From assembly GCA_002498185.1 (NCBI GenBank), contig DAGO01000079.1:35643-67913 (forward strand): 32,271 nucleotides of DNA. The letters run 5' to 3'. Below the pieces are notes generated by a model. The model was given only the letters and a program-made list of their open reading frames with translations. It searched no databases and was not told where the DNA came from. Every line of letters starts with the position of its first letter. The first letter of the stretch is position 1. This document shows positions 1 through 18,606 of the stretch, one piece after another. Both the position numbers and the translations under genes were made by a program. The stretch is from Euryarchaeota archaeon UBA10 (GTDB taxonomy: Archaea > Thermoplasmatota > Poseidoniia > Poseidoniales > Poseidoniaceae).

Positions 1-597
1 ACAACTCCGCCAGTCATTTTCTGAATATATGCTACGAAGTGGTTGAGGGTTGGATGCTCTGATAGAACGAAGTCCTCATCGACAGGCAGTGAGAATATTT
101 CTCGTACATCACCCATGATTTCCGCTTGCTTTACGGTATCAATTCCCAATTCGCCCTCGAGGTCCTGGTCCATCTCAATGAAATCTTCAGGATAGCCTGT
201 ATGTTTGACGACGACACCGATTAGCCTTGGCTGAATATCCTCTGCGCCACCGCTTGGGGCTTCTACTGTAGTAGCAGGTGCTGCAACCGGCGCAGGCTCA
301 GGCTCTGGTGTAGCTACCGGTTCTGGTGCTGCAACCTCGGCTGGCGCTTCTACAACAGCAGGAGCGCCTCCTTGCATCTTGTGAATGTAAGCAATCATGT
401 GATTCAACGTTGGATAATCTGATAGAACGAAATCCTCGTCAACAGGTAAACCGAATTTAGCACGGATATCTGCCATGATTTCTGCTTGCTTTACTGTATC
501 AATTCCCAATTCGCCTTCTAGGTCCTGGTCTAGTTCGACGAAGTCAGCAGGATACCCAGTATGGTTCACTACTACATCGATTACAATCTGAGTTGTA
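1..597 (-). repeat. Tandem 360-bp in-frame duplication encoding two PfaA-type carrier (ACP-like) domains separated by Ala/Pro-rich linkers
   Basis: Positions 61-235 align with 421-595 at an exact 360-nt offset (for example gatagaacgaagtcctcatcgacagg vs gatagaacgaaatcctcgtcaacagg). The core 113-170 vs 473-530 differs at 4 of 58 nt, all synonymous. Both copies encode DQDLEGELGIDTVKQAEIM. Confidence 0.9.
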
Positions 598-3500
598 TCG
601 CCTGCTGGGGCTGGCGTTGGCGCCGGTTGGCTAGCAGGGGCTGGGGCTGGCTCAGGTGCCGGTTCAGGCTCTGGAGCTTGCTCAACGATTACTGGAGCAG
701 CCTTGGTTGCTTCAGCGCTAGGAACCGCGTATTCCTCACCTTGGATTCCACCGTGGAGGTTGTTTTCTCCATCAACATATGCCACAAGCTTGTTCTTGAG
801 TACACGTAATTCGAGATTTGCTGTTCCTGCTAATGACTGATTCCAAGCAAGGAGTTTTTGTTTGTCGATTCTATCTCCAGAAAATTCGAACTTTCTAACA
901 AATGAAAGTCCAATTTGACTTCCAAATCCTGCTGCGAATCGCATTCCATACCTCAATTCAGAATAATCTCCTCCCTTCGAGAGGTTGAGGTTACCAAGTT
1001 CTGGATCTACCTCTTTGTGATTTGCAATTGGAGGTATTCTACCCGTCAACAAACCGTAGAACATCGATGCATCTTCAATTCCGACACCCATTGGATGTCC
1101 TGTGAATCCTTTGGTATTGGCGATTACAAGAGAATCTGTACTTGCACCGAAGGTCTCGCGCAATGCTTTGACCTCTGCTTGAGCTGAACCTCCTCTTGCC
1201 GGAGTGTAGGTTTCGTGAGAGAAGAACACTGTACTTGGAGCTATTTGATGTCTATCTAAGCCCCATCTCTGCTCGATTTCAGTTACGAATTCATTCACTG
1301 TTTTAGCCACATGGTCTACATCAAGTCTAGTCCCATGATATGCTGAGTTGGAAATCTTAGTGCCGAGTATCTCTGCCATAGGCTGAACGCCTCTAGCATC
1401 AGATTCTGACTTTCTCTCAACTACGAACGCTGCTGCACCCATTCCCAGAATCAATCCATTTCTTCTCTTGTCAAATGGGAGTGCTGTATCTTCGACAACA
1501 TTGCTGGTTGCGGCAGCTCCACTAGCAGCGAATCCTGAGCCAATCCACTCCCATAGGTCGTCTCCTGTCACATCATCAGCAGAGATGATTACAACTCTAT
1601 CACAACGGTCGTTAGCAAGCCAATCTTCAGCGACACCGAATGCTGCAGTTGCTGAAGCGCATGCTAGGTTGATTGTGGTGTTCGGCCCACGAATACCTAC
1701 ATGCTGTGCGAATTGGGAATGACCCATATTCAAAATCTGGAACAGATACCTTCTGTCAAATCGACCTTCTCCATCGTCGCCATCCACCTTAGCATGCTTT
1801 GCTGCCATTTGATGTCCTGCGAAACAAGAAGCGAATACAATCCCGGTTCTGTCTCGGTAAACCGAAGGCATTTGCCACGACCTAATTAGGCGCAGTCCGC
1901 CTTTACCGACCTGCTCGACCGGAGTAAGAGGGATTCCTGCATCTTTCAATGCGATTAGACCTGCTGCACATGCCAATTGAGTTGTGATATCCCAAGCGGC
2001 TGCAATCTTTGCTTCGATTCCAAATTCTTCTTCAGGGTCAAAGGCTGACATTACTCCTGCAAGTTGAGGTATGTCGCCAAATTCCTTAGCTGCATCCATT
2101 CCTACGCTGCCATCTCTTCCTTTGATTAGTCGCACGATATTCTTGTCAAGCAAACGTTGCTTGTACTCATCGCTGACTTCGCTAATGCAGGTCTCGCCTC
2201 GAACTAATTTCTCGAAATTGCCCTCATCGAAAACCCTCTCTCCACCTGGTAAGCCGAGAGAGATACCAGTGATTACGAATGGATCATCGTCTCTATCATC
2301 CAATTTTGTGGCTCTTGACTTGGCTCCTGTAATCGGGGCGGATGTAATCCATCGAGTGATATCCCCCGGAGTCTTTGCCACTGTAATATCCCAATCAGGG
2401 TCTGTGCTACATCTAGCATGAACTGTCGTGATGACATCTTGCACCTGTTGGTCGCTCATTCCCAAAACAGCACGCATGTCGACATTGCCTTGACAGAATT
2501 TCGCTGGATACCCTGTTTGAGCGGCAATCAATTCACCGACTAAGGCTTTCTTTGCTGCATCTGGGTCAACGTATGTGTCGCTGGACTTTACAACGGTCTT
2601 AGTAACAACTTCTCCACCCTTTGAGGGTAGAGGTTTACTTCTTTCTCTTAGAGGAGTTGTAGGCTTAGATACTGAGCTAGATGCTTCAATAGGGCCTGCT
2701 CGGAAAGCCTCGGTCAAGTGAGGGCTATCTCTTCCCGGCCACTGCGGTGGCCTTCCCGCAAGAGCAAGAGTTCCTAGAGCAGACAAGAAGGTCGCAATTC
2801 CTCCAGCCTTAGGATGGTTAGTCATCACAGGTAGGGCAGGCCTACCTTCGAGGATTTGCGATGCGAAAACTGTAAGCGCTCTTTTCGGTCCAACTTCCAA
2901 GAATATTCTCGCACCTGCGTCATACATCGAATTGACTTGAGTTGTCCACTCAACACTGGATGCCATTTGCGGTGCCAATTTTGAGAGTGCTGCGGCCTTA
3001 GAATCGCCGCCATCATCCATAGGATACCAGCCACCATCTACGTTGCTCGTAATCGGAATCTTTGGCCATTTAACGTCGAGATTCTCAAGGAATCTTCGTA
3101 GCGGTTCGTTTGCCGGCGCAACGATTCTCGAATGGAATGCATGGCTTGTTGCCAAGGCTACTGTCTGGAATCCTTCTGCCTCGAAACGGGACATCGCCGC
3201 CTTGACAGGTTCTGTTTCTCCAGCGATAACTGTCATCTTTGGAGAGTTCTTGTTCGCAGCGATAACATAGCCATCAACTTCCTCGATAATCTCAGCAATT
3301 CTCTCGTAAGGAGCGGTGACGCTAGCCATCAATCCCTTGTCATCAATTTCGACGCTGCCCATTTCAGTACCACGGGCGGCTGCGGCTCTCAAAGCGCCAT
3401 CCATGTCTAGGATTCCTGCACTCATCAATGCAGCATATTCGCCTAGGCTGTGTCCAGCAACCATGTCTGGCTTGTGTCCGTGAGCATTCAGTGCGGCTTC

Positions 3501-5618
3501 TATTGCTAAATCCGCAGTAAGCATTGCTGGCTGTGTATACTCGGTTTGCTTGAGCTTGTGCTCAGCCTCTTTCTTTTCTTCATCACTGAGATTTTCTCTC
3601 AGAACGAATGATGACAGGGTTTCTCCATCTAGGACATCAACCATAGTGATGTCAGCCTTGTTCCAAACTTCGCCAACTCCCGTATATCTTGAATTCAAAT
3701 CATTGGTCATGCCAACATATTGACTACCTTGCCCGGGATACATGTGAGCGACTTTTGCTTCGCTTGGAAGTGCAGGGTCGTTGCTAATTAGAATGCCTTG
3801 ACTCATCAAGAAGCCCCATTTCCCAGGGTCGTCCATCGCCTTGAGTGCCAAGTCCTTACGCTTGTTGAACTCAGCCCAACTAGTCGCTGTAATCGCCATT
3901 CTTAGCGAATCGCTGGTATCATAGGACCAGTGTTCAGGTAGTGTGAATGAAAGACGCATTCCTTTTGGGTCATCGTCGAAATTACTTCCCGAAAATGTAA
4001 TTCCGGCCAATTTGGATTTGACGGTTTCAACAGAGTCACCAGACAGCAATAGTAGGCCGCCTTCAATCGCTTTGAGTTCTTCATGTGTCATTGTTGGTTT
4101 AGAAGATGAAGTCGTTGCTGTTCCAGCATATGCATCCCATCTTCCATCCCACTCCGATACCAAATCAGCGTGATAATCAGGAACATACTCTTCCAATGTT
4201 ACGTGGAAATTTGTTCCACCGAAACCGAATGCGGAGATACCTGCTCTACGTGGATTGGTTTCTGGTTTAGGCCAATCCAATGCTTTGGTTGGAACGAAGA
4301 ATGGAATTTCGCCCCATTCTACGGTAGGATTAGGCGTTTCGAAACCTGCGCTCGGCGGGATTGTAGCGTGGTAAACCGCGTTACATGCCTTCATTATTCC
4401 AGCAATTCCTGCTGCAGCCTTCAAGTGACCAATCTGGCTTTTCACTGAACCAACAGCGATGTGATCTCCGCCATCGAGACCGGTCCAAAGCAGGGAAAGT
4501 GTCGATAATTCTGTTGCGTCACCCACCTTCGTTGATGTGCCGTGAGCCTCAACCAACTCAACGGTTGATGGCTCATATCCTGCTTGCGCATAGGCTCTGC
4601 TTACAGCTTGAACCTGTCCTCTCTGACTCGGTGCGGTGATTCCCTTGCCTCTGCCATCAGAAGAGCCTCCGACTCCACGAATAACCGCCTTGATATCATC
4701 ACCGTCATCGATTGCATCGGACAATCTCTTGAGAAGAAGTACACCTGCTCCTTCACCCATTACGAATCCGTTTGCTCTTGCATCGAATGGAGTTGAATGA
4801 GTGGGAGAAAGAGCGCCAATCGCACTGAACTTAGCATAGGTTGGTGCCTCCATGCAGCGGTCGGTCGCTCCGGCTAGCATAGTGTCGACTTGACGTGTTT
4901 GGAGTAGACGGCATGCATCTAGCAATGCCGCCATCGAAGATGCACATGCTGCATCTGTGGAATAATTTGGACCTTGTAAATCAAGCAAATTAGCGACTCG
5001 GCCGCTGACTACATTTGCTAATTCTCCCGGCATAGTGTCCTCATCAATGCGTGGAGTGCCTTCGCAGATTTTCTCCACCATAGCGTCTGCTTGCTCAGGA
5101 GTTACGCCATTGTCGATAGCGATTTTTCTCATTTCGGCACTGAATACTCGAATGTTTGATTCAGAACGATTCTCACCGCCCAGTGCATTAGCAAAAATCA
5201 CGCCTGTGCGAGCTCTATCGAGCGTTTTTCCGCCTTCGCCATAACCTGCGTTATCGATTGCATCTGCGGAAACCGTGACCGCCCACAACTGGCATGGGTC
5301 GATTTGAGGTAGAGTCCCCGGGGGCTGCCTCCATCTGCGCCAATCGAACTCATAGCCGTCTACAAATCCTCCAATTTTGGAGTACGTCTTACCTTCGCTG
5401 ACATTCCCAGGTGCGCCGTTTTCCCAGTAAATATCTGGATCCCAGCGGTCTTTCGAGACTTCCTTAATCGAGACATGAGCATCGATTATGTTCTGCCAAA
5501 ACTCCTCGATGGAGGTTGCATCTGGCATCAGTGCTGCCATTCCAATAACCGCAATCGGCTCGAATGGAGATTGATTCAATCCGTCTACTTGTTTTCCGTC
5601 TGCAGTGGTAATCGTCAT
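1..5618 (-). CDS. Type I polyketide/PUFA-synthase-like megasynthase, N-terminal >=1872 aa (KS-AT-carrier-like-KS-carrier-carrier...); 3' end runs off the left window edge
   Basis: My own translation of the minus frame from ATG 5618-5616 (MTITTADGKQVDGLNQSPFEPIAVIGMAALMPDA...) stays open to position 1. It is absent from the ORF track because there is no stop in the window. KS motifs: TDAACASS, EAHGTSTKVGD, GFGGTNFH. AT motifs: YPGQGSQY, GHSLGE, SHAFHS. Second KS: INLACASAT, NTKGFTGHPMG. Two PfaA-like carrier repeats follow. A GGGGGAG SD-like element sits 7 nt upstream of the ATG, inside the last codons of fabI. Confidence 0.85.
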   Translation of the reverse strand, partial: MTITTADGKQVDGLNQSPFEPIAVIGMAALMPDATSIEEFWQNIIDAHVSIKEVSKDRWDPDIYWENGAPGNVSEGKTYSKIGGFVDGYEFDWRRWRQPPGTLPQIDPCQLWAVTVSADAIDNAGYGEGGKTLDRARTGVIFANALGGENRSESNIRVFSAEMRKIAIDNGVTPEQADAMVEKICEGTPRIDEDTMPGELANVVSGRVANLLDLQGPNYSTDAACASSMAALLDACRLLQTRQVDTMLAGATDRCMEAPTYAKFSAIGALSPTHSTPFDARANGFVMGEGAGVLLLKRLSDAIDDGDDIKAVIRGVGGSSDGRGKGITAPSQRGQVQAVSRAYAQAGYEPSTVELVEAHGTSTKVGDATELSTLSLLWTGLDGGDHIAVGSVKSQIGHLKAAAGIAGIMKACNAVYHATIPPSAGFETPNPTVEWGEIPFFVPTKALDWPKPETNPRRAGISAFGFGGTNFHVTLEEYVPDYHADLVSEWDGRWDAYAGTATTSSSKPTMTHEELKAIEGGLLLLSGDSVETVKSKLAGITFSGSNFDDDPKGMRLSFTLPEHWSYDTSDSLRMAITATSWAEFNKRKDLALKAMDDPGKWGFLMSQGILISNDPALPSEAKVAHMYPGQGSQYVGMTNDLNSRYTGVGEVWNKADITMVDVLDGETLSSFVLRENLSDEEKKEAEHKLKQTEYTQPAMLTADLAIEAALNAHGHKPDMVAGHSLGEYAALMSAGILDMDGALRAAAARGTEMGSVEIDDKGLMASVTAPYERIAEIIEEVDGYVIAANKNSPKMTVIAGETEPVKAAMSRFEAEGFQTVALATSHAFHSRIVAPANEPLRRFLENLDVKWPKIPITSNVDGGWYPMDDGGDSKAAALSKLAPQMASSVEWTTQVNSMYDAGARIFLEVGPKRALTVFASQILEGRPALPVMTNHPKAGGIATFLSALGTLALAGRPPQWPGRDSPHLTEAFRAGPIEASSSVSKPTTPLRERSKPLPSKGGEVVTKTVVKSSDTYVDPDAAKKALVGELIAAQTGYPAKFCQGNVDMRAVLGMSDQQVQDVITTVHARCSTDPDWDITVAKTPGDITRWITSAPITGAKSRATKLDDRDDDPFVITGISLGLPGGERVFDEGNFEKLVRGETCISEVSDEYKQRLLDKNIVRLIKGRDGSVGMDAAKEFGDIPQLAGVMSAFDPEEEFGIEAKIAAAWDITTQLACAAGLIALKDAGIPLTPVEQVGKGGLRLIRSWQMPSVYRDRTGIVFASCFAGHQMAAKHAKVDGDDGEGRFDRRYLFQILNMGHSQFAQHVGIRGPNTTINLACASATAAFGVAEDWLANDRCDRVVIISADDVTGDDLWEWIGSGFAASGAAATSNVVEDTALPFDKRRNGLILGMGAAAFVVERKSESDARGVQPMAEILGTKISNSAYHGTRLDVDHVAKTVNEFVTEIEQRWGLDRHQIAPSTVFFSHETYTPARGGSAQAEVKALRETFGASTDSLVIANTKGFTGHPMGVGIEDASMFYGLLTGRIPPIANHKEVDPELGNLNLSKGGDYSELRYGMRFAAGFGSQIGLSFVRKFEFSGDRIDKQKLLAWNQSLAGTANLELRVLKNKLVAYVDGENNLHGGIQGEEYAVPSAEATKAAPVIVEQAPEPEPAPEPAPAPASQPAPTPAPAGDTTQIVIDVVVNHTGYPADFVELDQDLEGELGIDTVKQAEIMADIRAKFGLPVDEDFVLSDYPTLNHMIAYIHKMQGGAPAVVEAPAEVAAPEPVATPEPEPAPVAAPATTVEAPSGGAEDIQPRLIGVVVKHTGYPEDFIEMDQDLEGELGIDTVKQAEIMGDVREIFSLPVDEDFVLSEHPTLNHFVAYIQKMTGGV
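885..2295 (-). other. Ketosynthase domain 2 (divergent, catalytic residues apparently present)
   Basis: DDPFVITGISLGLPGG...GPNTTINLACASATAAFG (Cys codon 1659-1661)...FFSHETYTPARGGSAQAE...ANTKGFTGHPMGVGIED...AAGFGSQIGLSF. Confidence 0.7.
2340..2545 (-). other. Degenerate carrier-protein-like domain between AT and KS2
   Basis: QTGYPAKFCQGNVDMRAVLGMSDQQVQDVITTVH aligns by eye with the downstream repeats (TGYPADFVELDQDLEGELGIDTVKQAEIM). The signature reads LGMSD instead of LGIDS/T. Confidence 0.4.
2830..3760 (-). other. Acyltransferase (malonyl-type) domain of the megasynthase
   Basis: HMYPGQGSQYVGM; PDMVAGHSLGEYAALMSAG (Ser codon 3447-3449); ATSHAFHSRIV (HAFH motif, usually associated with malonyl specificity). 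Confidence 0.8.
4190..5567 (-). other. Ketosynthase domain 1 of the megasynthase
   Basis: PIAVIGMAALMPDA...STDAACASS (Cys codon 4944-4946)...VEAHGTSTKVGDATE...VKSQIGHLKAAAG...GISAFGFGGTNFHVTLEEY. The Cys-His-His triad is readable. Confidence 0.8.
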
Positions 5619-5622
5619 CTGA

Positions 5623-6417
5623 TTACTCCCCCATAATGCTCGATGGGACCATCGTTATCGAATATCCAGCATCAACATGGATACACTGTCCCGTCACTCC
5701 CGCTGAAAGTGGGCTGGCCAGCCAAGTAGTGCAACCTGCGACGTCAGACTGGGTTACATTTCTGCGAAGTGGTGAGTTTGCTGCAACGTGGTCGAGGATA
5801 TTATCGAATCCAGGAATTCCGCTTGCTGCAATGGTTCGAATGGGCCCACTGGAGATGGAATTGACACGGTGTCCTTCTGGGCCTAAGTGGCACGCTAATT
5901 CTCTAGTCCAGCACTCTAGAGCTGCTTTTGCCATGCTCATTATTCCGTAAGAAGGAACGTGCCTTGTTGATGCAGCGTAGGTCAATGTGATTGTTGATGA
6001 GCCAGGATTTAGGTGTGGCAATGCGAACTTCAAGCATCTTTGCAAAGAGTTAGCAGAGATTGTGTAAGCAGTATTGATGCTCTCATCGTCGACGAAAAGG
6101 ATCGGTCGGTCAAAGCATTCCCTTGGTGCAAATCCGATAGCGTGAATCAGAATGTCTGCTTTTAGCCCGGGATTTTCTTTGCTGAAAGCATCGAAGAATT
6201 CCTTGGTATCCGCATCAGAAGCGACGTCTAGAGGATAGAAACCGGCTATTGCTGGGAGTTTGTCTTTGAGTTGGAATACTCGTGACATGAAACGCTTCTG
6301 ATAACCCAAGTACAGAGTCACCCCTGCTTCGGCCAAACTTTGGCAAATTGCCCAAGCGATTGAGTCTTCACTGGCCACTCCGAAAACAAATGCAACTTTA
6401 CCTTGTAAACCAAGCAT
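5623..6417 (-). CDS. fabI: Enoyl-[acyl-carrier-protein] reductase, SDR-type (FabI family)
   Basis: MLGLQGKVAFVFGVASEDSIAWAI (FabI N-terminal glycine-rich pattern) and SYGIMSMAKAALE (Y-x6-K catalytic pattern). I prefer the ATG at 6417 over the track's GTG at 6426. The stop lies 4 nt before the megasynthase ATG. Confidence 0.85.
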   Translation of the reverse strand: MLGLQGKVAFVFGVASEDSIAWAICQSLAEAGVTLYLGYQKRFMSRVFQLKDKLPAIAGFYPLDVASDADTKEFFDAFSKENPGLKADILIHAIGFAPRECFDRPILFVDDESINTAYTISANSLQRCLKFALPHLNPGSSTITLTYAASTRHVPSYGIMSMAKAALECWTRELACHLGPEGHRVNSISSGPIRTIAASGIPGFDNILDHVAANSPLRRNVTQSDVAGCTTWLASPLSAGVTGQCIHVDAGYSITMVPSSIMGE

Positions 6418-8562: not shown

Positions 8563-9102
8563 TCACGCCTTGAACGATTTCTTGTCTGCAAACTTAGACT
8601 TCCAATGTACTGCTGACATTGTAACCATGTTAGGGTGGCGAGCATTTAGTGCTACACATCTACCGGTTGGCCAAATTAGCAATTCCAAGTCATGTCGAGT
8701 GTCTTCTAACCTTAGGCAGCCTAGCCTTTCGTCCATTGAAGATGTTCCACTTCCAAGATTCATACGGATATTTTCAATTGGAATTGGTTCACCAAAATCA
8801 AAAGAGGCGATGATTGGGCCCAGTTCTGTAACCATTCCAGAATCATCTCTTCCCATTCGCAACATCATTTCTTTCGCAGCCGCTCTGGCCGCTTCAATTC
8901 GATGTGTGCCGTGAACAACAATCCTTCCTTCACTGTCGATAATCAGAGTCGCTCTGGGCTTATCGAGCATTTTGATAATGACATCGCCATTAACGACTCC
9001 CCCAAGTCTCTCAACGGCTTCTTCCAGATCTACACGAGGAGTTGGAGTGAAGCGAACAAGTAGATTTTCTACTCGAACTTCGATGCTACTAGAGCCGACC
9101 AT
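8563..9102 (-). CDS. Divergent TBP-fold (TATA-box-binding-protein-like) two-repeat protein
   Basis: Two internal repeats align by eye to archaeal TBP. RVENLLVRF..VDLEEAV...DKPRATLIIDSEGRIVVHGTHRIEAARAAAKEM matches RIENIVASVDL..LDLEKV...[22 protein letters not shown]. The second repeat is IIASFDFGEPIPIENI...LELLIWPTGRCVALNARH. ATG at 9102 is preceded by GAGGAGGAG, and the upstream extension in the track overlaps the previous gene. Confidence 0.5.
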   Translation of the reverse strand: MVGSSSIEVRVENLLVRFTPTPRVDLEEAVERLGGVVNGDVIIKMLDKPRATLIIDSEGRIVVHGTHRIEAARAAAKEMMLRMGRDDSGMVTELGPIIASFDFGEPIPIENIRMNLGSGTSSMDERLGCLRLEDTRHDLELLIWPTGRCVALNARHPNMVTMSAVHWKSKFADKKSFKA

Positions 9103-9104
9103 AA

Positions 9105-9902
9105 TCACTCCTCCTCGTTCTCCGATGGGGCGCCATCTGAAGAACTCTCTGCATAAGGCAACGTTTCCAAAGCCGTTAGCATAGAACTTCTCCATGCCTG
9201 TTGTATCGGTACAAGCAGCACTGCGTCATCGCCATGTGTTTCACGAAGACTTGCTAGACCTCCACGCAATCTTCCTGCGAACCTTAGGTCCTTGGCTCGA
9301 TTAAGTTCTTCTTCAGAATTCTCCCGATTCAACTTCCACCAGGTTGCTGCTAATGCGCTCGCTGCTTGCAAGCCATCCGGCTCACGGGAAGGTTGTTCGA
9401 CAACATGTTTACGCATCTTTTTGATACCTTTTCGCCATCTTCTAGATGTAAAAACAATCCTAGCCAATTTTAGCGGTCTAGTCATTGCTTTGGCTTCCTT
9501 ACCAAGGAAGTCCGCCCAACCATCATCATCCATATCCGGTTCTGCAAAGAATACTGCACGGTCATGATTAACCGCAGCTTTGTGCAACCTTCTAGGCTCT
9601 GGGTCTGGGAATTTCCCAACCTGTAATCCTTCGACTCCATATGCTAGCATCTCGAGATACAGACCGTCTAGACCGCCGTTTAGTATAGCGCTATCGAGGT
9701 TGATTCCAGGGTCTTCGACTTCTGATTTTTCTTCCTCTGCCCAGACCTCGATTTCCTCACTAGACCCCATTATTCCAAGGCCGTGCCAACTGATGCGCGG
9801 CCTCATTCCGTTGGGTAGAACAACAGTAGGTAAAACTCCGTGGAGCACAATTGTGCCGCCATCGGGGTCTTCCCAATGTATGTCATTCCAGTCAAGATTC
9901 AT
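9105..9902 (-). CDS. Hypothetical protein (265 aa, acidic; no family recognised)
   Basis: Long ORF packed between neighbours (6 nt after the giant gene's stop, 2 nt before the next start). I recognised no motif. Confidence 0.55.
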   Translation of the reverse strand: MNLDWNDIHWEDPDGGTIVLHGVLPTVVLPNGMRPRISWHGLGIMGSSEEIEVWAEEEKSEVEDPGINLDSAILNGGLDGLYLEMLAYGVEGLQVGKFPDPEPRRLHKAAVNHDRAVFFAEPDMDDDGWADFLGKEAKAMTRPLKLARIVFTSRRWRKGIKKMRKHVVEQPSREPDGLQAASALAATWWKLNRENSEEELNRAKDLRFAGRLRGGLASLRETHGDDAVLLVPIQQAWRSSMLTALETLPYAESSSDGAPSENEEE

Positions 9903-9908: not shown

Positions 9909-12900
9909 TCACTGATTATTGTTGACCCAATCACGTAGACTGTCAATGTCCCAACCTTGGTCAAAGTAGCCTTGGATTGTCGCTTGGTCCCATTGTGGGA
10001 ACTCTGCCATTGCTGCAGCCATTGCTGGATCTACATTCGCTGCTGGAGGCGGTCCTGCCGAAGGAGGACCTGCTCTAGGCACTTCAGCGTAGGATTTCTC
10101 GGCTTCTTCATCATACTCGTATTCATACTCGTATGTTCCATCACCGGAATCTCTTCTAGCAAGTACCACGACTACAACTAACAGAATTAGAATCAGCGTA
10201 CCTAATCCAATAACAATCAACATACCTGAACCAGATAAGAACCCTTCATCATCAGAAGCTTCTGCTACGTTGAATGACTTAGAGTTCTCTGAGCCATTCC
10301 ATAGGACTTCATTGGATTCTGAATCCACGATTAAGAAGTACATTCCACTAGTTGGTGTTCCGAACACTTCCAGGTCGTTAACGAAAATATTCGCCATTGT
10401 ACCTTGAGCAATCTCTTCGGTTGTCCATGTCAATTCAGTTGTTGGGAATCCACCATCCTTCACGGACTGGACCTCAAGTGTGATGTTCCCATCCTTTGTA
10501 CCGATGTTCTGAATTGAAATTTCGAGTTCAGGAACTTGTCCGACTTCTGGATTCTTCGGCGTCATTCGAACGTCGATGACATTGAACTTGGCTTGTTCGT
10601 GGACCAATCTGTACTGTGAGTTGTGTACAGGGTTGCTCGAATAGATGGAACTTATTCCGCCTACAATGTTCGGTCCGCCGCCTTCAATATCCCAACCTGC
10701 AGAATCTCTTCCCTCAATCCACATTACAAGGTCTACAGTGGTAATCTGTGCTTGCGTTGGGTCTTGTGGGTCTGGCCATAGGTCGACACATTCTGCGCTG
10801 ACCAAGTAATCGCCACCTTGAATCTTCAGATCCAATGGATGAGACTGCGCCTCTACACCGAATCTCTGGCCATATACAGGCCAAGTTAGGTTTGAATCAG
10901 CATCAGAGTAGAAGGACCACATTAGGTTGACTTCACCAGCAAGTAGAGCAGCGTTCTCTTCGATTACCGCTTCAACATCGATACAGTGCATTGTTGATGA
11001 TGGCATTGTGTTGCCGAGAACTTCTCCATTGATTCCAGAGCTTGCAGTCCATGAATCGTCATCGATTTCTGGCTTGCTTGCATCAACCTTGATCTTGAAT
11101 GATGCACATCCGAAAGCGCTGTTTCCATCACAAATATTTGCAGTAGAATCCGTCGCACCATCAGGTAGGTTAACCAATCTGAATGTGTATGTGTACTCAT
11201 TGTTCAGAGGAGGTGCTGTGATGTTGATGTTGAATGCACCGCCATCGATTGTGTGCAAGGTAGGTCCATCTGTCTTGGAACCATCTGCACCACCAGCAGG
11301 GTATGCAAAGTAACCCTTGCTACCGTCCATCATTGCTTCTTGGCGAGTTACTTCTAGAGTGAATTCGCCTTCAGGCAGAACATAGACACCGAAGTTAATT
11401 CCGTCAATGTATGCATACTGTCCTTCCATGGAGATTGTGTCACCAGGGAATACGAATGCAACTTGAACATCCTGTGAGTATGGGTAAGACAAGTCTGTGA
11501 ATGCAGGAGTAATTCCGCTTCGGAAGTCCAACTGAATACCATCGCTGTAGACCCAGCGCTGCTTGTGGCGTCCACCGGATTCACTCATTATTGATGGATC
11601 CCTATCCATATCCTTGATTCTTAGCTGAGGAATCATTGTTCCACCACCAATACCGATGATGTCCCAATTCATTCTAATCGGTAGGTCGAGGTAGAACTCG
11701 TCTTCGAATGGGTCGATTAGTCGACCTCCATCCATACGCAGAACCTGAGGACCATCGCTGCCATTACCTGCTTCAATGATTTCGATATCTGTTGAAGAAG
11801 TCCATGCTGTCTCATTTCTTGGTGAGTAATATACCACCATATCTTGAGCACCAAGGTCGATTTCGAAGTAGTTGATATCTCTCCAACCATTCTCATCGGT
11901 TGCTTCAACAATCAAGTGGTACTGGTTTCCAGCATACATTGTCATGTTCCAAGGCCCTTGGTAGAATGGTGCACCTTCGCTTGGGTTGTGCAAGCGCTCT
12001 CCGTTGGAATCTTCGATGAAGAAGTTCCTGATGTTAGGAGTCTTTGCATCCATTGATACATAAGTGACCAGGTCGTTCTCGAATCCAGGTACACCAGCAG
12101 CAATTGAGTTACCTCCAAGGTCTGTACCTTCGATGTAGATACTGACCTTGCCCGGTGGGTCTTGACCCTTGTTTGCATCATCACTGAATGTTCCAGTGTA
12201 ATTTGCGGTAGGCGCATTACCGTCGCTGTACAATGTTAGAACTACGTACTCATCAGGGTCTGCAATTCCGTCCATGTCAGTGTCGTGGTCATACTCGACC
12301 CAGTAGTACATGTCTAGGCTACTTGGAGGAGTAGGGATATCCTGTGCTAGAACTCTGACCTTCTGTTGAGCGCTTGGCAGTACCCATGTATCGTCAACTA
12401 GGCTTCTCCAGTTGGTCCAAATTGTCTGGTCGAAGTTAGCAGCCTTCAATACTGAAATATTGACCAAAGTAGGAGAATATGTATCGATTGACAAATTGAA
12501 TGGAATAGCACAATCGGAATCTGAAACGATTGGTGCTGGAGGACATAGTGTGTCTCCTCCTTCGTATCCATCAATCATGAATCGATATGTCGCTTGGCCA
12601 GCAGCTGTCGCTCCCAAGTTAATCGCCCAATCGAAGTCGCCGCCAATGACCCCAGTGGTGTTCGTTACTTCGACCCACTCTGAGACAACTGTTCCATTCA
12701 CAGTCTGGACATCCCAGCGTTGTAGAGACATGTTGTAAGAGGTCGGGTCAGGAGCAACATCCAGTCCTTCGAGTCTGATGCTGCCAACTAAGTTGATGTT
12801 CTGGTTAGAACTTGCAGATGCTAGGTTTTGTACGTCTCCTGCATTGTTTCTCAACTCAAATGCTGAGACCATTGCATCGTTCTCGATTGCGTTTCCGCTA

Positions 12901-15719
12901 GCAGGTGCCAGAACGATAGCACCAGGAAGTCCATTGACCCCGTTATCTGCAACAAGGCTTGCATACAGACGCAATTCTGCTGTGTCTTCCCATGCGGTGT
13001 TAATTCTGAATCTCCATGTTACAGTAATTTCATCTCCAGCCCAGTTGTATGACGAAGACTCCATTGTGACCAAGTTGTCTGGGTCGTGTGCTTCAGTGAA
13101 CAGTGATAGTTCAGAGAATGCAAGTTCAACAACTCCGCTTGAAGATTCCATTCTTAGTCTGGATTCTGCGAAAGCCGCACCTGTTGATTGAGAAACACTG
13201 TGGGTTGAAACAGCTTCAATGATGTCACCATTTGGATACAGCCCTTCAGGACTACCTGTTAGACTTAGAGTTGAATCGTAACCTGTTGCAGTGGTAATCG
13301 ATAGGTCTGAAAGCATGACACCTCCGCCGGAATGTGCTGAAACTGCCAATGGTACATCGACTTGAGCACCTGTTCCAAGAGCGATACCTTGGTTCAACTC
13401 TCTATCGAAATTGCTGGAACCACCAAGAGATGTTTCCCAATCATAGATGATGTCCAAGTCACTTACCTTGACATGAGTTCCACTAGCTGCATTTTGATTT
13501 GATACCGAGAAGCGGAATGTGGCCCACTCGTTTCCATATTCATCGATGTGTGATGCTTGCAGAAGTGGATTATTCATCAAAGACGTAATAGCATCCTTGA
13601 ATGCAAACATCGGGAACATTGTCTCATGCGCAATCACAGATTGATTAGGTACCGTTCCCAATGAAACTTCTTGACCACTTGCAGTTAATGACAAATCAAA
13701 GCCACCAGCAGTGTTGTCTGACATAATGACGTCTGCTACCTTGACATCAGCACCGATAGGTAGCATGAAACCACCGCCAGTTGCCTCACCGTTTGTATTC
13801 AGAGTAATTGTGGCTTCATCCATTGCGTAATTGACGCCTAGCGATGAACCAGCCCAGAATTCGGTCTGGCGACCGAATGCACCGAATGCTGGTTCATCCA
13901 TTGCCCATTCAATGTCTCCATCGTTTGCGATATCGATAGATACGCCAGTTGCGCTGTGACCGAATTCTAGGTCGAACCATAGTTCAGACAAGCCACAGGT
14001 GTTGCTGTAAGATACAATGGATGAGAATCCGAAAATTGGGTCTGTAGGAATCCATTTCTGGCCTACAGTCAAGTTGTGATTGGTGTTATCCCTTAGAATA
14101 ACTTCGATCTTTGGAGATTCCATACAATCATCGACCACTACCGGTGTTACGCCCACAATAGGCTGAGAGAATTTTGAGGTATACAAGGTCGGAGTGAATG
14201 AGTTATCTGCAATCGTCGGATTGTAGAATAGCGGTATATCTCCACCAGGAGATTGCCATACACCATTGGATATCATCGGACTTTGAACAACATCAGTATC
14301 GTTCATTCCAGTACCGATTCTAGTACCTATGCTCAATCCGTGCAATACTGCTGTGGATAGCCTATACTGTCCTGTATCGAAATCGAAACGGAGGTCGATA
14401 ACTGGATATTCTGAAGCATCAACGCCCCATAATTCGATGATTGGACCTACTAAACCAGTCATTTGGTTTCCATCTCTGTCTAGTGCGATTTCAGTTGTTC
14501 CCGCACGCAGAACTGAAACAGTCAGTGAGTTGGTTGGAGTTGTTTCTTGTTCTAGGGTTAGAACTCCGTAGCCGTCAGGGAATCCTGGGTTAGGAGATTG
14601 CTTGGGTGTGAAGCCCTTGACAGTCATTGAACCGGACTGAGGCAATGGGTCTCCAAGGCGGAAGTCATCGATGAACCAACCAGGCATGGTTGTGTTTTGT
14701 GGCACACCTGCACCGCTGTTGTGACTCAAGACGAACTTGAGTTGGACATACTTGTGGATGTGCTCATTCAGGTTGACTGCTAGTGTTGACCAGCCGTTAG
14801 GGTTCTGAGTAGGGTGAGTTGATTCTCCACCAAGTGCATAGTCTGTGCCAGTAAGACTGTCACAATTCTGAATCTTTCCGTTTCCACTACCGATTGGATA
14901 CAGTCCGTTTGCGTAACTGACTCCGGTTGAGTTGGTCATATCGAATGGAATGTAACTCCAACCTACTTCGGGTGGAGGGAATGAAGGAGAGGATGAGTTC
15001 CTGACCATTACATATCCACAGTCGTAGTAAGTGTTGGTTGGATTAGCACCTGGGTTGGTTTGAGACCAGTGCATTCCGTGCCAGCTTGAGAAGCGAGCGA
15101 TGAATGACCCTGGGTCAACTTCCATTTCTGGAGTTATCATGCTGTATGAGAATCCTGAACCTTGGTCATCAGTGGTGTAATCATTGTCGAAATCGTACAT
15201 ATTTGTACCCCAACAATCATTTCCAGTGTTACAGTTTTCATTCAAAACAAATCCATCAGCGAGAGTGCCGTGCTGCCAACCTGTGCCATCTGCGACTGGT
15301 TGTGAAACATCCATGAATCCAGAGCCTGTTCTCTCAAAGTCGGTGGAGAAACCACCGCTGACTAGACTTATTGTGTCTTCATGGTATGTGAAATCTGCTA
15401 GGGTTGAGAACTCGGTTTGCTGATTGTTGTAGACCGGATCCCATACATATTGAGATGTTTCAGAATTGATTGTAGTGTATGTTTCATGGGTAGCCATATC
15501 TGTGGAAACTTTCACTGATGCGCTTGTAACCGTGTCACCTGAAGGTATTGTCACGGTTCCATCTACGATGTTTGTGTAGTCTGGTCCGTCTCGAACTTCA
15601 ACGGTTACTTCGCTATCTCCGCCGCTAAATGTAGTCACATTTGCTGCGCCTGCAATAGGAGCAATCAGCATAATACCTGTGAAAACCAAAGCGGTAATTG
15701 CACTCTTTTTGTCTGTCAT
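9909..15719 (-). CDS. Giant (1936 aa) secreted surface/adhesin-like protein with a C-terminal TM anchor and cytoplasmic tail
   Basis: N-terminal signal/anchor MTDKKSAITALVFTGIMLIAPIAGAANV. Long Thr/Ser/Asn/Gly/Asp-rich ectodomain. TM segment GMLIVIGLGTLILILLVVVVVLARR. Tail GTYEYEYEYDEEAEK...PRAGPPSAGPPPAA...GWDIDSLRDWVNNNQ. SD-like GAGGGTGG upstream of the ATG. Confidence 0.85.
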   Translation of the reverse strand: MTDKKSAITALVFTGIMLIAPIAGAANVTTFSGGDSEVTVEVRDGPDYTNIVDGTVTIPSGDTVTSASVKVSTDMATHETYTTINSETSQYVWDPVYNNQQTEFSTLADFTYHEDTISLVSGGFSTDFERTGSGFMDVSQPVADGTGWQHGTLADGFVLNENCNTGNDCWGTNMYDFDNDYTTDDQGSGFSYSMITPEMEVDPGSFIARFSSWHGMHWSQTNPGANPTNTYYDCGYVMVRNSSSPSFPPPEVGWSYIPFDMTNSTGVSYANGLYPIGSGNGKIQNCDSLTGTDYALGGESTHPTQNPNGWSTLAVNLNEHIHKYVQLKFVLSHNSGAGVPQNTTMPGWFIDDFRLGDPLPQSGSMTVKGFTPKQSPNPGFPDGYGVLTLEQETTPTNSLTVSVLRAGTTEIALDRDGNQMTGLVGPIIELWGVDASEYPVIDLRFDFDTGQYRLSTAVLHGLSIGTRIGTGMNDTDVVQSPMISNGVWQSPGGDIPLFYNPTIADNSFTPTLYTSKFSQPIVGVTPVVVDDCMESPKIEVILRDNTNHNLTVGQKWIPTDPIFGFSSIVSYSNTCGLSELWFDLEFGHSATGVSIDIANDGDIEWAMDEPAFGAFGRQTEFWAGSSLGVNYAMDEATITLNTNGEATGGGFMLPIGADVKVADVIMSDNTAGGFDLSLTASGQEVSLGTVPNQSVIAHETMFPMFAFKDAITSLMNNPLLQASHIDEYGNEWATFRFSVSNQNAASGTHVKVSDLDIIYDWETSLGGSSNFDRELNQGIALGTGAQVDVPLAVSAHSGGGVMLSDLSITTATGYDSTLSLTGSPEGLYPNGDIIEAVSTHSVSQSTGAAFAESRLRMESSSGVVELAFSELSLFTEAHDPDNLVTMESSSYNWAGDEITVTWRFRINTAWEDTAELRLYASLVADNGVNGLPGAIVLAPASGNAIENDAMVSAFELRNNAGDVQNLASASSNQNINLVGSIRLEGLDVAPDPTSYNMSLQRWDVQTVNGTVVSEWVEVTNTTGVIGGDFDWAINLGATAAGQATYRFMIDGYEGGDTLCPPAPIVSDSDCAIPFNLSIDTYSPTLVNISVLKAANFDQTIWTNWRSLVDDTWVLPSAQQKVRVLAQDIPTPPSSLDMYYWVEYDHDTDMDGIADPDEYVVLTLYSDGNAPTANYTGTFSDDANKGQDPPGKVSIYIEGTDLGGNSIAAGVPGFENDLVTYVSMDAKTPNIRNFFIEDSNGERLHNPSEGAPFYQGPWNMTMYAGNQYHLIVEATDENGWRDINYFEIDLGAQDMVVYYSPRNETAWTSSTDIEIIEAGNGSDGPQVLRMDGGRLIDPFEDEFYLDLPIRMNWDIIGIGGGTMIPQLRIKDMDRDPSIMSESGGRHKQRWVYSDGIQLDFRSGITPAFTDLSYPYSQDVQVAFVFPGDTISMEGQYAYIDGINFGVYVLPEGEFTLEVTRQEAMMDGSKGYFAYPAGGADGSKTDGPTLHTIDGGAFNINITAPPLNNEYTYTFRLVNLPDGATDSTANICDGNSAFGCASFKIKVDASKPEIDDDSWTASSGINGEVLGNTMPSSTMHCIDVEAVIEENAALLAGEVNLMWSFYSDADSNLTWPVYGQRFGVEAQSHPLDLKIQGGDYLVSAECVDLWPDPQDPTQAQITTVDLVMWIEGRDSAGWDIEGGGPNIVGGISSIYSSNPVHNSQYRLVHEQAKFNVIDVRMTPKNPEVGQVPELEISIQNIGTKDGNITLEVQSVKDGGFPTTELTWTTEEIAQGTMANIFVNDLEVFGTPTSGMYFLIVDSESNEVLWNGSENSKSFNVAEASDDEGFLSGSGMLIVIGLGTLILILLVVVVVLARRDSGDGTYEYEYEYDEEAEKSYAEVPRAGPPSAGPPPAANVDPAMAAAMAEFPQWDQATIQGYFDQGWDIDSLRDWVNNNQ

Positions 15720-15783
15720 GGGGCCACCCTCTTTCCTGCCCCAATCAAATCGGGCATAAAAGACCGACGGGGAAGTGTCTATT

Positions 15784-15811
15784 CGGGTTCCCCCCTTAAG
15801 GGGGGGACCCG
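15784..15811 (-). terminator. GC-rich 12-bp hairpin just downstream of the ThiI-like stop, followed by a T-tract/TATA-like TCTTTTAT on the coding strand
   Basis: Plus strand is cgggttcccccc-ttaa-gggggggacccg. It has one G-T/C-A position, so it is perfect only with a wobble on the plus-sense RNA. Confidence 0.35.
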
Positions 15812-15818
15812 TTTGATG

Positions 15819-16511: not shown

Positions 16512-16578
16512 CAAATCTTAGCATAATATGGGGAATTAGTACATGGATTCAAGGAGTTGATGCCAACAGCAGTTACCA

Positions 16579-17040
16579 ATGGAGCCGTATAGTACAGAAC
16601 CTGTAACCCTGATTGAGGAAGTCTTTCCTCAGGATACCAATTCATACAACACATTGTTTGGTGGTCGACTACTATCGCTAATGGATAAGGCTGCAGGCAT
16701 AGTGTGTGCAAAATTCGCACACAGAGAATTCGTGACGATTTCGATTGATACTTTAGAGTTCAAGGCACCAGCAAAACAGGGAGATTTAATTGAAGTAACT
16801 GGAAAAGTTGTTTTCACTTCAAACAGAACCGCTTGTGCGAAGGTAACCGCTTGGGCAATGAGCAAATCTGATTGGACAAAGACCGAAATTTGTCAGGGTT
16901 ATTTCTTCATGATTGCAATCGACTCGATGATGCGCCCTATTCCAATCCCCCAATTCAGTGCTGAAACAGATGAAGAAAAGGCTGATTGGGAGACGGCAAA
17001 GGGAATTAGAGAGCACATGCTTTCTAGAAAAAACAAGTGA
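16579..17040 (+). CDS. Acyl-CoA thioesterase, hotdog fold (YciA/BFIT-BACH-like)
   Basis: PQDTNSYNTLFGGRLLSLMDKAAGIVCAKFAHREFVTISIDTLEFKAPAKQGDLIEVTGKV is the classic acyl-CoA hydrolase hotdog pattern. Confidence 0.8.
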   Translation: MEPYSTEPVTLIEEVFPQDTNSYNTLFGGRLLSLMDKAAGIVCAKFAHREFVTISIDTLEFKAPAKQGDLIEVTGKVVFTSNRTACAKVTAWAMSKSDWTKTEICQGYFFMIAIDSMMRPIPIPQFSAETDEEKADWETAKGIREHMLSRKNK

Positions 17041-18561: not shown

Positions 18562-18606
18562 CCCGAACCGCCGAAGTTAATCCCGAGGTTATGAACCCAC
18601 CGTTTT

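What the first reader, a model, noticed from the sequence alone, without database searches (positions are those of the whole stretch)
1..6417. Type I PKS/PUFA-synthase-like megasynthase coupled to fabI in an archaeal-looking locus, invisible in the supplied ORF track
For 1-5618 the ORF track lists only short plus-strand ORFs, yet the minus strand reads as one open frame of at least 1872 codons from ATG 5618 to the window edge. From motifs, the domain order is as follows. First comes a KS with an intact Cys/His/His triad. Next is a malonyl-type AT (GHSLGE, HAFH), then a degenerate carrier-like domain. A second KS follows; it is divergent but still bears Cys/His/His (ACAS, SHETYTP, GFTGHP). Last are two PfaA-type carrier repeats, and the protein continues off-window. 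Four nt upstream lies an SDR-type enoyl reductase (FabI) whose final codons contain the GGGGGAG SD for the megasynthase, which suggests a fabI-synthase operon. The rest of the window is archaeal in character (Orc1/Cdc6, TBP fold, archaeal PPAT plus DUF359 kinase). Archaea are usually described as lacking ACP-dependent FAS/PKS systems. In addition, KS-AT-CP-KS-CP-CP is neither the textbook PfaA (KS-AT-ACPn-KR-DH) nor the PfaC (KS-CLF-DH-DH) order. The product and its role in membranes or secondary lipids are therefore open.
Basis: partly seen in the sequence, partly recalled or inferred. Interest (0 to 1): 0.8.

Follow-up and report, generated by a model that had tools for sequence, protein, structure and literature searches.

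The report
Fatty-acid-type megasynthase operon in archaea
Abundant ocean archaea (Marine Group II) carry a conserved operon for a giant bacterial-type fatty-acid/polyketide synthase with its own reductase and activating enzyme, which is a concrete candidate for how they could make fatty acids, and its carrier domains have threonine where textbook carriers have serine.

Summary
The minus strand is open from ATG 5618 to the window edge (1872 codons). It reads KS, malonyl-type AT, a decayed carrier remnant, a second FabF-like KS with intact Cys/His/Lys/His, then two carrier domains. A FabI gene ends 4 nt upstream.

Full-length homologs (about 2,760-3,050 aa) add further carriers, KR and a PKS-type DH. 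A divergent Sfp-type phosphopantetheinyl transferase gene follows them. The fabI-synthase-PPTase order holds in every Poseidoniales locus with room to show it. These include single-cell genomes and Mb-scale contigs, so the locus is not a chimera.

The architecture is not unprecedented. It matches the uncharacterised "Type R" Pfa-like cluster of Shulse and Allen (2011), which is widespread in Bacteria. Three bacterial loci examined have an acyl-CoA-dehydrogenase-like gene where the archaea have FabI. One Heimdallarchaeote also carries a homolog.

It is not a PUFA synthase. It scores below the PfaA cut-off, no PfaB/C/D is nearby and it has no FabA-type DH.

Most likely it is an iterative, ACP-dependent synthase of saturated acyl chains that uses FabI as a trans enoyl reductase.

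Unexpectedly, every carrier repeat examined in Poseidoniales (358 repeats in 120 proteins) and in 111 bacterial homologs (566 repeats) has Thr at the phosphopantetheine serine position.

The parts
1..5618 (-). N-terminal 1872 codons of a ~2,890-aa Type R Pfa-like megasynthase. The ORF runs off the window. The missing part (a third carrier, KR, DH) is inferred from P0001, which is 95% identical.
   Evidence: Open frame. Pfam and NCBIfam domains. Full-length homologs.
4185..5561 (-). KS1, a PKS-type ketosynthase (aa 20-478). Active site C225, H359, H398.
   Evidence: Pfam 8e-73 / 5e-37. Best PDB relatives are PKS ketosynthases. Residues are invariant in 117 homologs.
2754..3743 (-). Malonyl-type acyltransferase (aa 626-955), with GHSLGE (S724) and HAFH (H826).
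   Evidence: Acyl_transf_1 5e-35 and FabD model 2e-59. Motifs are invariant.
2337..2564 (-). Decayed carrier-like domain (ACP0 remnant, aa ~1019-1094). It has no conserved Ser or Thr at the attachment position.
   Evidence: Family ACP HMM i-E 2.8e-4. PfaA model ACP region E 2.5e-4. AF2 helical domain with pLDDT ~90. The site residue varies S/D/N/T/A among homologs. An intact carrier sits at this place in bacterial P0157 and P0158.
759..2303 (-). KS2, a FabF-like second ketosynthase (aa ~1106-1620). Active site C1320, H1468, K1503, H1508.
   Evidence: FabF model 6.6e-38. S. aureus FabF 1.4e-23 with the active-site residues aligned. The AF2 model matches FabF at TM 0.82. Residues are invariant in 117 MGII and 16 diverse family members.
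369..599 (-). Carrier domain 1 (aa 1674-1750), with Thr1708 (codon 495-497) at the phosphopantetheine site.
   Evidence: PP-binding. Thr aligns with the Ser of solved ACPs. In the AF2 model Thr is the first residue of helix II, and the fold matches ACPs at TM 0.8-0.89.
9..242 (-). Carrier domain 2 (aa 1793-1870), with Thr1828 (codon 135-137).
   Evidence: PP-binding with 2 stretches. Family ACP HMM 2.3e-35.
5623..6417 (-). FabI-type enoyl reductase (264 aa), the proposed trans-acting ER of the synthase. Its stop lies 4 nt before the synthase ATG.
   Evidence: adh_short_C2 1.3e-66. All best NCBIfam hits are FabI models, but below their cut-offs. The Tyr/Tyr/Lys motif LTYAAS...SYGIMSMAKAALE is present. 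It is found at 80-98% identity in all 67 loci that reach that far upstream.
5626..5632 (-). GGGGGAG Shine-Dalgarno-like motif inside the last FabI codons, 7 nt before ATG 5618.
   Evidence: Sequence read directly. Its function is inferred.

Best explanation
The window holds the first two genes of a three-gene operon, fabI - megasynthase - PPTase. The operon is a conserved chromosomal feature of Marine Group II archaea (Poseidoniales). The synthase belongs to the uncharacterised 'Type R' Pfa-like family, which is otherwise bacterial.

Proposed mechanism:
- The dedicated Sfp-type PPTase, just off-window, converts the 2-4 tandem carriers to their holo form. The only conserved hydroxyl at the attachment position is Thr.
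- The AT loads malonyl units from malonyl-CoA.
- The two catalytically intact ketosynthases (PKS-type KS1 and FabF-type KS2) share initiation and elongation. They probably divide the work by chain length.
- The KR reduces and the PKS-type DH dehydrates.
- FabI, made from the same transcript, reduces the enoyl-ACP in trans.
- The product is therefore a saturated or largely saturated straight acyl chain. It is not a PUFA, because there is no FabA-type isomerising DH.
- There is no TE. The chain is probably passed to acyltransferases such as the PlsC homologs reported in most MGII genera, or released by a discrete thioesterase.

Shown: gene content, domain order, catalytic residues, conservation, synteny and family membership. 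Inferred: iterative saturated synthesis, FabI as partner, Thr as attachment site and the fate of the product.
For: Gene and domains:
- Open frame and domains.
- Full architecture with KR and DH in 120 homologs.
- All catalytic residues of KS1, AT, KS2 and DH are invariant in 117 MGII proteins.
- The same residues plus the KR Ser/Tyr/Lys/Asn are invariant in 16 diverse family members.
- KS2 is as conserved as KS1 (0.85-0.93 per 50-aa block).

Operon and synteny:
- fabI-synthase-PPTase, with the same upstream genes, occurs on a 34-kb, a 133-kb, a 1.16-Mb and a 3.0-Mb contig.
- FabI is present in all 67 GTDB loci that reach far enough upstream.
- The PPTase is present in all 48 loci with room downstream.
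- 214 GTDB species genomes encode KS2 relatives.
- The PPTase has both 4PPT_N and ACPS domains. GIDAE and WTSKEAVQK motifs are visible in its sequence.

Family and bacterial contexts:
- Type R description.
- In all three bacterial loci examined the synthase sits with a PPTase. Two of them also hold acetyl-CoA carboxylase genes, which points to bulk malonyl-CoA consumption.
- One relative, P0146, fuses an NMO-type ER and a PPTase to the same core. This shows that the family works with an ER.

Wider support:
- A biotin carboxylase gene lies 15 kb away in the window.
- MGII lack G1P dehydrogenase, and most genera have G3P dehydrogenase and plsC (PMC6461757 and its supplement).
Against: - There is no biochemical or lipid evidence. 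MGII are uncultured, and no fatty-acid lipid has been assigned to them in what I could read.
- Thr at the carrier site is, to my knowledge, not an accepted PPTase substrate. E. coli ACP S36T is used as a non-modifiable apo form (own knowledge, not checked here). Carrier function is therefore assumed, not shown.
- FabI scores fall below every NCBIfam FabI equivalog cut-off (213 vs 391 bits).
- No TE or acyltransferase lies in the operon.
- The three bacterial loci examined pair the synthase with an acyl-CoA-dehydrogenase-like gene, and one of them also with ETF and WS/DGAT genes. The ancestral product may therefore be a storage or specialised lipid rather than a membrane fatty acid.
- I could not check whether MGII also hold discrete FAS II genes.
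Confidence: 0.6

Rival explanations
1. The synthase makes a specialised 'secondary' lipid or polyketide rather than bulk membrane fatty acids. Examples are a hydroxy or very-long-chain acyl chain for a storage lipid, a glycolipid or an envelope component. In that case FabI acts only in some cycles or not on this enzyme.
For: - The family was defined as a 'secondary lipid' synthase of unknown product.
- In the Acidobacteria locus it sits beside WS/DGAT and ETF genes.
- Tandem carriers are typical of PUFA and heterocyst-glycolipid synthases.
- The flanking MGII genes include a predicted anchored surface protein (choice-of-anchor T) and a 1936-aa protein of unknown function.
Against: - FabI is translationally coupled and universally present. 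KR and DH are intact. A complete reducing cycle is therefore encoded.
- The operon is core in all Poseidoniales genomes sampled rather than patchy, which is unusual for secondary metabolism.
Confidence: 0.27
2. It is a polyunsaturated fatty acid (PfaA-type) synthase subunit.
For: The best NCBIfam model is TIGR02813 PfaA (647 bits). It has tandem carriers with Pro/Ala-rich linkers.
Against: - The score is below the PfaA cut-off of 1010 bits.
- No pfaB, pfaC or pfaD genes lie within 10 kb in four Poseidoniia loci.
- It has no FabA-type DH/isomerase domains, only a PKS-type DH.
- The ER partner is FabI, not an NMO/PfaD type.
Confidence: 0.03
3. The Thr carriers cannot be phosphopantetheinylated. 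The tandem domains would then be structural or docking modules, and the enzyme would work on CoA thioesters or with a separate carrier.
For: No conserved Ser exists in the repeats. To my knowledge PPTases are specific for Ser.
Against: - A dedicated PPTase gene is adjacent or fused throughout the family.
- Thr and Ser interchange at exactly this position among relatives, and even within one protein, P0230.
- All four Thr codons are used, so the residue is under amino-acid-level selection.
- The fold is a canonical ACP with Thr at the N-terminus of helix II.
Confidence: 0.07
4. The synthase region is bacterial DNA joined to archaeal genes by mis-assembly or binning.
For: - G+C is slightly higher in 1-6 kb (0.48-0.50) than in the neighbouring 6-9 kb (0.45-0.46). 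Tetranucleotide correlation of the first 6.4 kb with the rest of the window is 0.76-0.80, against 0.83-0.88 among the other segments.
- The family is mainly bacterial.
Against: The same junction and gene order recur in independent assemblies. These include contigs of 1.16, 1.53 and 3.0 Mb and the isolates AG-404-K16, AG-461-G23 and AH-273-F07.
Confidence: 0.01

Closest known systems
'Type R' secondary lipid synthase cluster (Shulse and Allen 2011, PLoS One 6:e20146)
   Same: It is a single pfaA homolog with KS-MAT-second KS ('CLF')-tandem ACPs-KR, followed by a PPTase gene. Acetyl-CoA carboxylase genes are sometimes in the cluster. Homologs at 35-50% identity occur in the same phyla, Acidobacteria and Chloroflexi.
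   Different: - The host is archaeal.
- FabI lies upstream instead of the acyl-CoA-dehydrogenase-like gene seen in three bacterial loci.
- It has 2-4 carriers rather than 3-6.
- A decayed carrier lies before KS2.
- The 'CLF' keeps its full Cys/His/Lys/His set, so it is a KS and not a chain-length factor.
- The paper mentions neither archaea nor threonine.
PfaA of bacterial omega-3 PUFA synthases (TIGR02813)
   Same: KS-MAT, tandem ACPs with Pro/Ala linkers, KR and a PKS-type DH. It is the best-scoring NCBIfam model.
   Different: - A FabF-like KS is inserted between AT and the ACPs.
- The score is below the cut-off.
- There are no PfaB/C/D partners.
- The carriers have Thr rather than Ser.
- The reductase partner is FabI.
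Type II FAS enzymes FabF and FabI
   Same: KS2 has the FabF fold and active site. The upstream gene has the FabI fold and Tyr/Lys motif.
   Different: KS2 is a domain of a megasynthase and scores 130 bits against a 494-bit cut-off. FabI scores below all equivalog cut-offs. No discrete ACP, FabD, FabG or FabZ was seen in the locus.
Enediyne PKS (PksE) and other iterative KS-AT-ACP-KR-DH-PPTase enzymes (own knowledge)
   Same: Iterative type I layout related to PfaA. The PPTase is fused in some family members (P0142, P0146).
   Different: The second KS, the tandem carriers and the ER partner are all absent from enediyne PKSs. This was not tested by phylogeny here.
ACP-independent archaeal fatty acid synthase complex of Sulfolobus (bioRxiv 10.1101/2024.07.05.601840)
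   Same: It is also proposed to let an archaeon make fatty acids de novo.
   Different: That system is CoA-based and built from thiolase, SDR and MDR enzymes. [quoted passage not shown] The present operon is ACP-dependent and of bacterial type.

Membership tests
Type R Pfa-like secondary lipid synthase (Shulse and Allen 2011) | One polypeptide with the order KS-MAT-second KS/'CLF'-tandem ACP-KR. | tested here: met
   The window ORF gives KS-AT-(ACP remnant)-KS2-ACP-ACP. Full-length homologs add ACP, KR and DH.
Type R Pfa-like secondary lipid synthase (Shulse and Allen 2011) | PPTase gene immediately downstream. | tested here: met
   It is off-window. It is present 4-13 nt after the stop in L001, L002, L003 and L087, and in all 48 GTDB loci with room. 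Pfam gives 4PPT_N + ACPS.
Type R Pfa-like secondary lipid synthase (Shulse and Allen 2011) | Sequence relatedness to the named Type R members (Koribacter, Solibacter, Roseiflexus, Elusimicrobium). | tested here: inconclusive
   Full-length homologs with the same architecture were found in Korobacteraceae, Sulfotelmatobacter, Chloroploca, Anaerolineae and Caldilineaceae. The exact proteins of the 2011 paper were not retrieved, and no KS tree with them was built.
PfaA, PUFA synthase subunit A (TIGR02813) | Whole-protein score at or above the curated cut-off (1010 bits). | tested here: not met
   647 bits for the 1872-aa fragment, matched over aa 21-926 only. The full-length P0001 was not scanned against NCBIfam.
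PfaA, PUFA synthase subunit A (TIGR02813) | Companion pfaB/pfaC (KS-CLF-FabA-type DH x2) and pfaD (NMO-type ER) genes. | tested here: not met
   None within 10 kb on either side in four Poseidoniia loci. The rest of the genomes was not searched.
FabI enoyl-ACP reductase | SDR fold of the adh_short_C2 type with catalytic Tyr...Tyr-x6-Lys. | tested here: met
   PF13561 1.3e-66 over the full length. LTYAAS...SYGIMSMAKAALE is present.
FabI enoyl-ACP reductase | Score above an NCBIfam FabI equivalog cut-off. | tested here: not met
   The best is NF005615 at 213.6 bits against a cut-off of 391. Twelve FabI models hit, all below their cut-offs.
Acyl carrier protein / PP-binding domain | Four-helix ACP fold. 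| tested here: met
   PF00550 7e-15. AF2 model pLDDT 85, matching solved ACPs at TM 0.8-0.89 and rmsd 1.4-2.0 A.
Acyl carrier protein / PP-binding domain | Conserved Ser at the N-terminus of helix II as the 4'-phosphopantetheine attachment site. | tested here: not met
   Thr occupies that position in the window (T1708, T1828). The same holds for all 358 repeats of 120 MGII homologs and for 566 of 566 repeats of 111 bacterial homologs.
Acyl carrier protein / PP-binding domain | Actual phosphopantetheinylation. | not testable with these tools
   This needs mass spectrometry of the carrier co-expressed with the adjacent PPTase.
Chain length factor (KS-beta/CLF) | Loss of the active-site Cys in the second KS-like domain. 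| tested here: not met
   Cys1320, H1468, K1503 and H1508 are invariant. The domain is a KS, not a CLF.

The most novel reading that the evidence does not exclude
The carriers of this whole megasynthase family bear 4'-phosphopantetheine on threonine rather than serine. The PPTase always encoded next to or fused to the synthase would install it. The family includes the version that is core to Marine Group II archaea, among the most abundant archaea of the surface ocean.

This would be a new form of a universal post-translational modification. It would also mean that two archaeal lineages hold complete ACP-dependent fatty-acid-type synthases that bear on the 'lipid divide'. Those lineages are Poseidoniia, and at least one Heimdallarchaeote with a Ser-type version and a fused PPTase.
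Probability: 0.4. Interest if true: 0.85.

Novelty: new variant of a known kind. Interest (0 to 1): 0.66.

Why it matters
Archaeal membranes are textbook isoprenoid ethers, and ACP-dependent fatty acid synthesis is said to be absent from nearly all Archaea. MGII archaea lack G1P dehydrogenase and have G3P dehydrogenase and plsC. This led to the unproven idea that they make 'mixed' or bacterial-type lipids.

No paper I could search names the enzyme that would make the acyl chains. This operon is a specific, universally conserved and clonable candidate of three genes, about 10.2 kb in total. That turns the hypothesis into a direct heterologous-expression experiment.

The operon also links MGII to a very large, uncharacterised bacterial megasynthase family of more than 1,000 clusters at 50% identity. 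The product of that family has been unknown since 2011.

Finally, the analysis exposes a family-wide Ser-to-Thr change at the most conserved residue of carrier proteins.

Tried and rejected
- **Exact look-up of FabI.** The window's FabI was not on record. I used P0001 and other homologs to extend the locus instead.
- **First tblastn for FabI.** The query was out of frame because of my coordinate slip (6416 instead of 6417). It gave spurious 32-64% identities. I redid it correctly (80-98%). The PPTase counts stand.
- **Literature.** Ten full-text searches found no paper linking MGII/Poseidoniales with a PKS, PUFA synthase, ketoacyl synthase or ACP. They also found none on threonine as a phosphopantetheine site. 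Villanueva 2017, Dibrova 2014, Martin-Cuadrado 2015 and the Beld PPTase review are not held, so prior description cannot be excluded.
- **Lost search.** P0122's context came from the look-up of encoding contigs instead.
- **PUFA synthase reading.** Rejected.
- **Chimera reading.** Rejected.
- **CLF reading of KS2.** Rejected.
- **Other scans.** tRNA and Rfam scans of the window found nothing.
- **KS2 tree.** The neighbour-joining tree used only 42 sequences that covered the whole domain. I used it only to rank nearest relatives.

Full report
**1. Observation**

The minus strand of window 1-5618 translates without a stop for 1872 codons from ATG 5618. The other two frames are closed. The ORF list misses it only because ORFs that run off the source are not listed.

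Pfam finds these domains:
- ketoacyl-synt N and C at aa 20-426.
- KAsynt_C_assoc.
- Acyl_transf_1 at aa 626-924.
- A second ketoacyl-synt stretch.
- Two PP-binding domains.

FabI lies at 5623-6417(-), 264 aa, adh_short_C2 1.3e-66. It ends TAA at 5625-5623, four bases before the synthase ATG. GGGGGAG (5632-5626) sits within its last codons.

The rest of the window is archaeal:
- Orc1/Cdc6 at 25126-26385.
- A TBP-like protein.
- PPAT+DUF359.

The window also holds a ThiI-domain protein and a biotin carboxylase.

**2. The whole protein and operon**

The closest homolog, P0001 (2887 aa, 95% identical), and about 120 others of 2,726-3,054 aa are named Candidatus Poseidoniales/Poseidoniaceae wherever a source names them. 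After the window edge they continue with a third (sometimes fourth) carrier, a KR and a PKS-type double-hotdog DH. There is no TE.

On the contigs that encode them, a 226-255-aa gene with 4PPT_N and ACPS domains follows 4-13 nt after the stop. This is a divergent Sfp-type phosphopantetheinyl transferase. GIDAE and WTSKEAVQK motifs are visible in its sequence.

The upstream order is the same as in the window: giant protein, 265-aa protein, TBP-like protein, TatD, anchored protein, FabI, synthase. It recurs on contigs of 34 kb, 133 kb and 1.16 Mb. A more distant relative (52% identity) on a 3.0-Mb contig has a similar order.

A scan of one genome per GTDB species with a KS2 profile found 214 genomes. 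The best 80 are all Poseidoniales or 'Euryarchaeota/Methanobacteriota' records, apart from one record labelled Salipiger. They include the isolates AG-404-K16, AG-461-G23 and AH-273-F07, which have single-cell-type names.

Among those 80 loci:
- FabI is present at 80-98% identity in all 67 that reach far enough upstream.
- The PPTase is present in all 48 with room downstream.

The locus is therefore a genuine core feature of MGII chromosomes. The small compositional offset of the first 6 kb fits an old transfer rather than a chimera.

**3. Domain anatomy**

- **KS1** is a PKS-type KS. Its best solved relatives are PKS ketosynthases, and it includes 6riw-like matches.
- **The AT** has the malonyl motifs GHSLGE and HAFH.
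- **The stretch between AT and KS2** contains a decayed carrier.
  - It has weak HMM matches.
  - AF2 folds it confidently as a helical domain.
  - Foldseek also aligns the model over 641 columns to the ACP1-KS-AT fragment of Pks13 (rank 35).
  - Its site residue varies among MGII proteins.
  - Some bacterial relatives keep an intact carrier there.
- **KS2** is FabF-like.
  - It matches the FabF model at 6.6e-38 and S. aureus FabF at 1.4e-23, with Cys, both His and Lys aligned.
  - The AF2 model matches FabF at TM 0.82.
  - It is as conserved as KS1.
  - Its catalytic residues are invariant in 117 MGII proteins and in 16 diverse family members.
  - It is therefore an active KS, not the 'CLF' of the 2011 description.

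**4. What it is related to**

A HMMER scan of 1.84 billion cluster representatives used aa 960-1872 as the query. It found 1,042 clusters at E<1e-30. The top 150 are proteins of up to ~4,000 aa, some of them fragments. In the full-length ones KS2 lies at about residue 1,100-2,300, which matches the same layout.

A profile search gave the named sources:
- Chloroflexi: AL-N15, Anaerolineae, Caldilineaceae, Chloroploca.
- Saprospiraceae and Lewinellaceae.
- Calditrichaeota.
- Acidobacteria: Sulfotelmatobacter, Korobacteraceae.
- Leptospiraceae.
- Myxococcota.
- One Heimdallarchaeote.

This matches the 'Type R' cluster of Shulse and Allen 2011. That cluster is a pfaA homolog, KS-MAT-CLF-ACP(3-6)-KR, plus a downstream PPTase. 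An ACC gene is sometimes inserted, and the product is unknown.

In three bacterial loci the gene upstream is a ~550-aa acyl-CoA-dehydrogenase-like protein rather than FabI. Two loci hold ACC genes, and the Acidobacteria locus also holds ETF and WS/DGAT genes.

The Heimdallarchaeote copy has a fused PPTase. It lies beside Arf/Ras-type GTPase, ACC and FabH-like genes.

By KS2 distance, the nearest named non-Poseidoniia relatives are Myxococcota MAGs. This ranking is only suggestive.

**5. The threonine carriers**

Both window carriers read DLEGELGIDTVKQAEIM. HMMER alignments to solved ACPs put this Thr opposite the phosphopantetheine Ser. In an AF2 model (pLDDT 85) that matches solved ACPs at TM 0.8-0.89, Thr is the first residue of helix II, which is the canonical site.

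Counts of the site residue:

| Set | Result |
|---|---|
| 120 MGII homologs | 358 of 358 repeats read LGIDTVK |
| 111 bacterial homologs | 566 of 566 repeats have Thr |
| 150 cluster representatives | 405 motif matches have Thr, 20 have Ser |

- The Ser cases sit in a few proteins, including the Heimdallarchaeote.
- One protein, P0230, mixes both residues.

Across 80 Poseidoniia loci all four Thr codons are used (ACG 91, ACT 53, ACA 47, ACC 43). Ser is one substitution away, so Thr itself is under selection. No other conserved Ser exists in the repeat.

With a dedicated PPTase always adjacent or fused, the simplest reading is that Thr is the attachment site. This is an inference. I found no paper describing it, but my literature access was limited.

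**6. Function**

A KS pair, a malonyl AT, carriers, KR, DH and a coupled FabI encode a complete reducing cycle. There is no FabA-type isomerase and no PfaB/C/D. The PfaA model score is below its cut-off, so a PUFA product is unlikely.

I therefore favour iterative synthesis of saturated acyl chains with FabI as trans ER (confidence about 0.6 for this mechanism). The main rival is a specialised secondary lipid (about 0.27).

Published comparative studies say the following:
- Rinke 2019, main text: MGII lack G1P dehydrogenase and have G3P dehydrogenase.
- Rinke 2019, supplement: plsC 'hints' at a bacteria-like fatty acid pathway.
- Rinke, Tully and Deschamps: none mentions a polyketide synthase, ketoacyl synthase or ACP.

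**7. Verdict**

The architecture belongs to a known but uncharacterised family, so it is a new variant (archaeal host, FabI partner) and not a new kind.

Its value lies in three points:
- It gives the MGII 'bacterial-type lipid' hypothesis a concrete, testable enzyme.
- It shows that the family also reaches Asgard archaea.
- It exposes a family-wide Thr at the carrier site.

Noticed in passing
window 9909-15719 (-): A 1936-aa ORF with no Pfam, NCBIfam or PDB sequence match. A similar giant gene (1,890-1,990 aa) lies at the same place upstream of the synthase operon in L001, L003 and L087. In L002 it is split into smaller genes.
   Followed up: partly
L040 (CAXQWT010000010.1): A GTDB record titled 'MAG: Salipiger bermudensis' carries the archaeal fabI-synthase-PPTase operon at 78% KS2 identity to Poseidoniales. 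This is probably a binning or labelling error in that MAG.
   Followed up: no
L088 (Heimdallarchaeota JADCLS010000015.1), gene 10001-19705: A Heimdallarchaeote encodes a homolog (P0142, 3234 aa) with Ser-type carriers and a fused C-terminal PPTase. It lies beside Arf/Ras-type GTPase, carboxyltransferase, BCCP and FabH-like genes.
   Followed up: partly
L084, L085, L086 (bacterial loci): All three bacterial homologs are preceded by a ~550-aa acyl-CoA-dehydrogenase-like gene, a candidate alternative enoyl reductase. L085 and L086 also hold acetyl-CoA carboxylase genes, and L086 also holds ETF alpha/beta, an Fe-S/CCG oxidoreductase and WS/DGAT.
   Followed up: partly
window 20631-21983 (-): A biotin carboxylase (AccC-like, 558 bits, below the equivalog cut-offs) stands without an adjacent carboxyltransferase or BCCP gene. 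Whether it supplies malonyl-CoA to the synthase is unknown.
   Followed up: no
window 16579-17040 (+): A hotdog-fold 4HBT thioesterase (YciA-like, weak) lies about 11 kb from the synthase start. It is a possible but untested release enzyme for a synthase that lacks a TE.
   Followed up: no
window 17041-18561 (-) and 29329-31611 (-): Two long ORFs (506 aa and 760 aa) have no Pfam hit. The 506-aa ORF also has no NCBIfam hit.
   Followed up: no
window 8563-9195 (-) and 9105-9902 (-): The listed ORFs overlap by 91 nt. In homologous loci the TBP-like gene is called at 177-179 aa, so its true start is probably downstream of the first ATG. Its TBP match covers only one repeat (aa 72-111, 1.6e-08).
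   Followed up: no
P0146 (JGI metagenome protein, 3420 aa): One family member fuses an NMO-type enoyl reductase at the N-terminus and a PPTase at the C-terminus. Its order is ER-KS-ACP-ACP-AT-KS2-ACP-KR-DH-PPTase, which is close to an all-in-one fatty acid synthase.
   Followed up: partly
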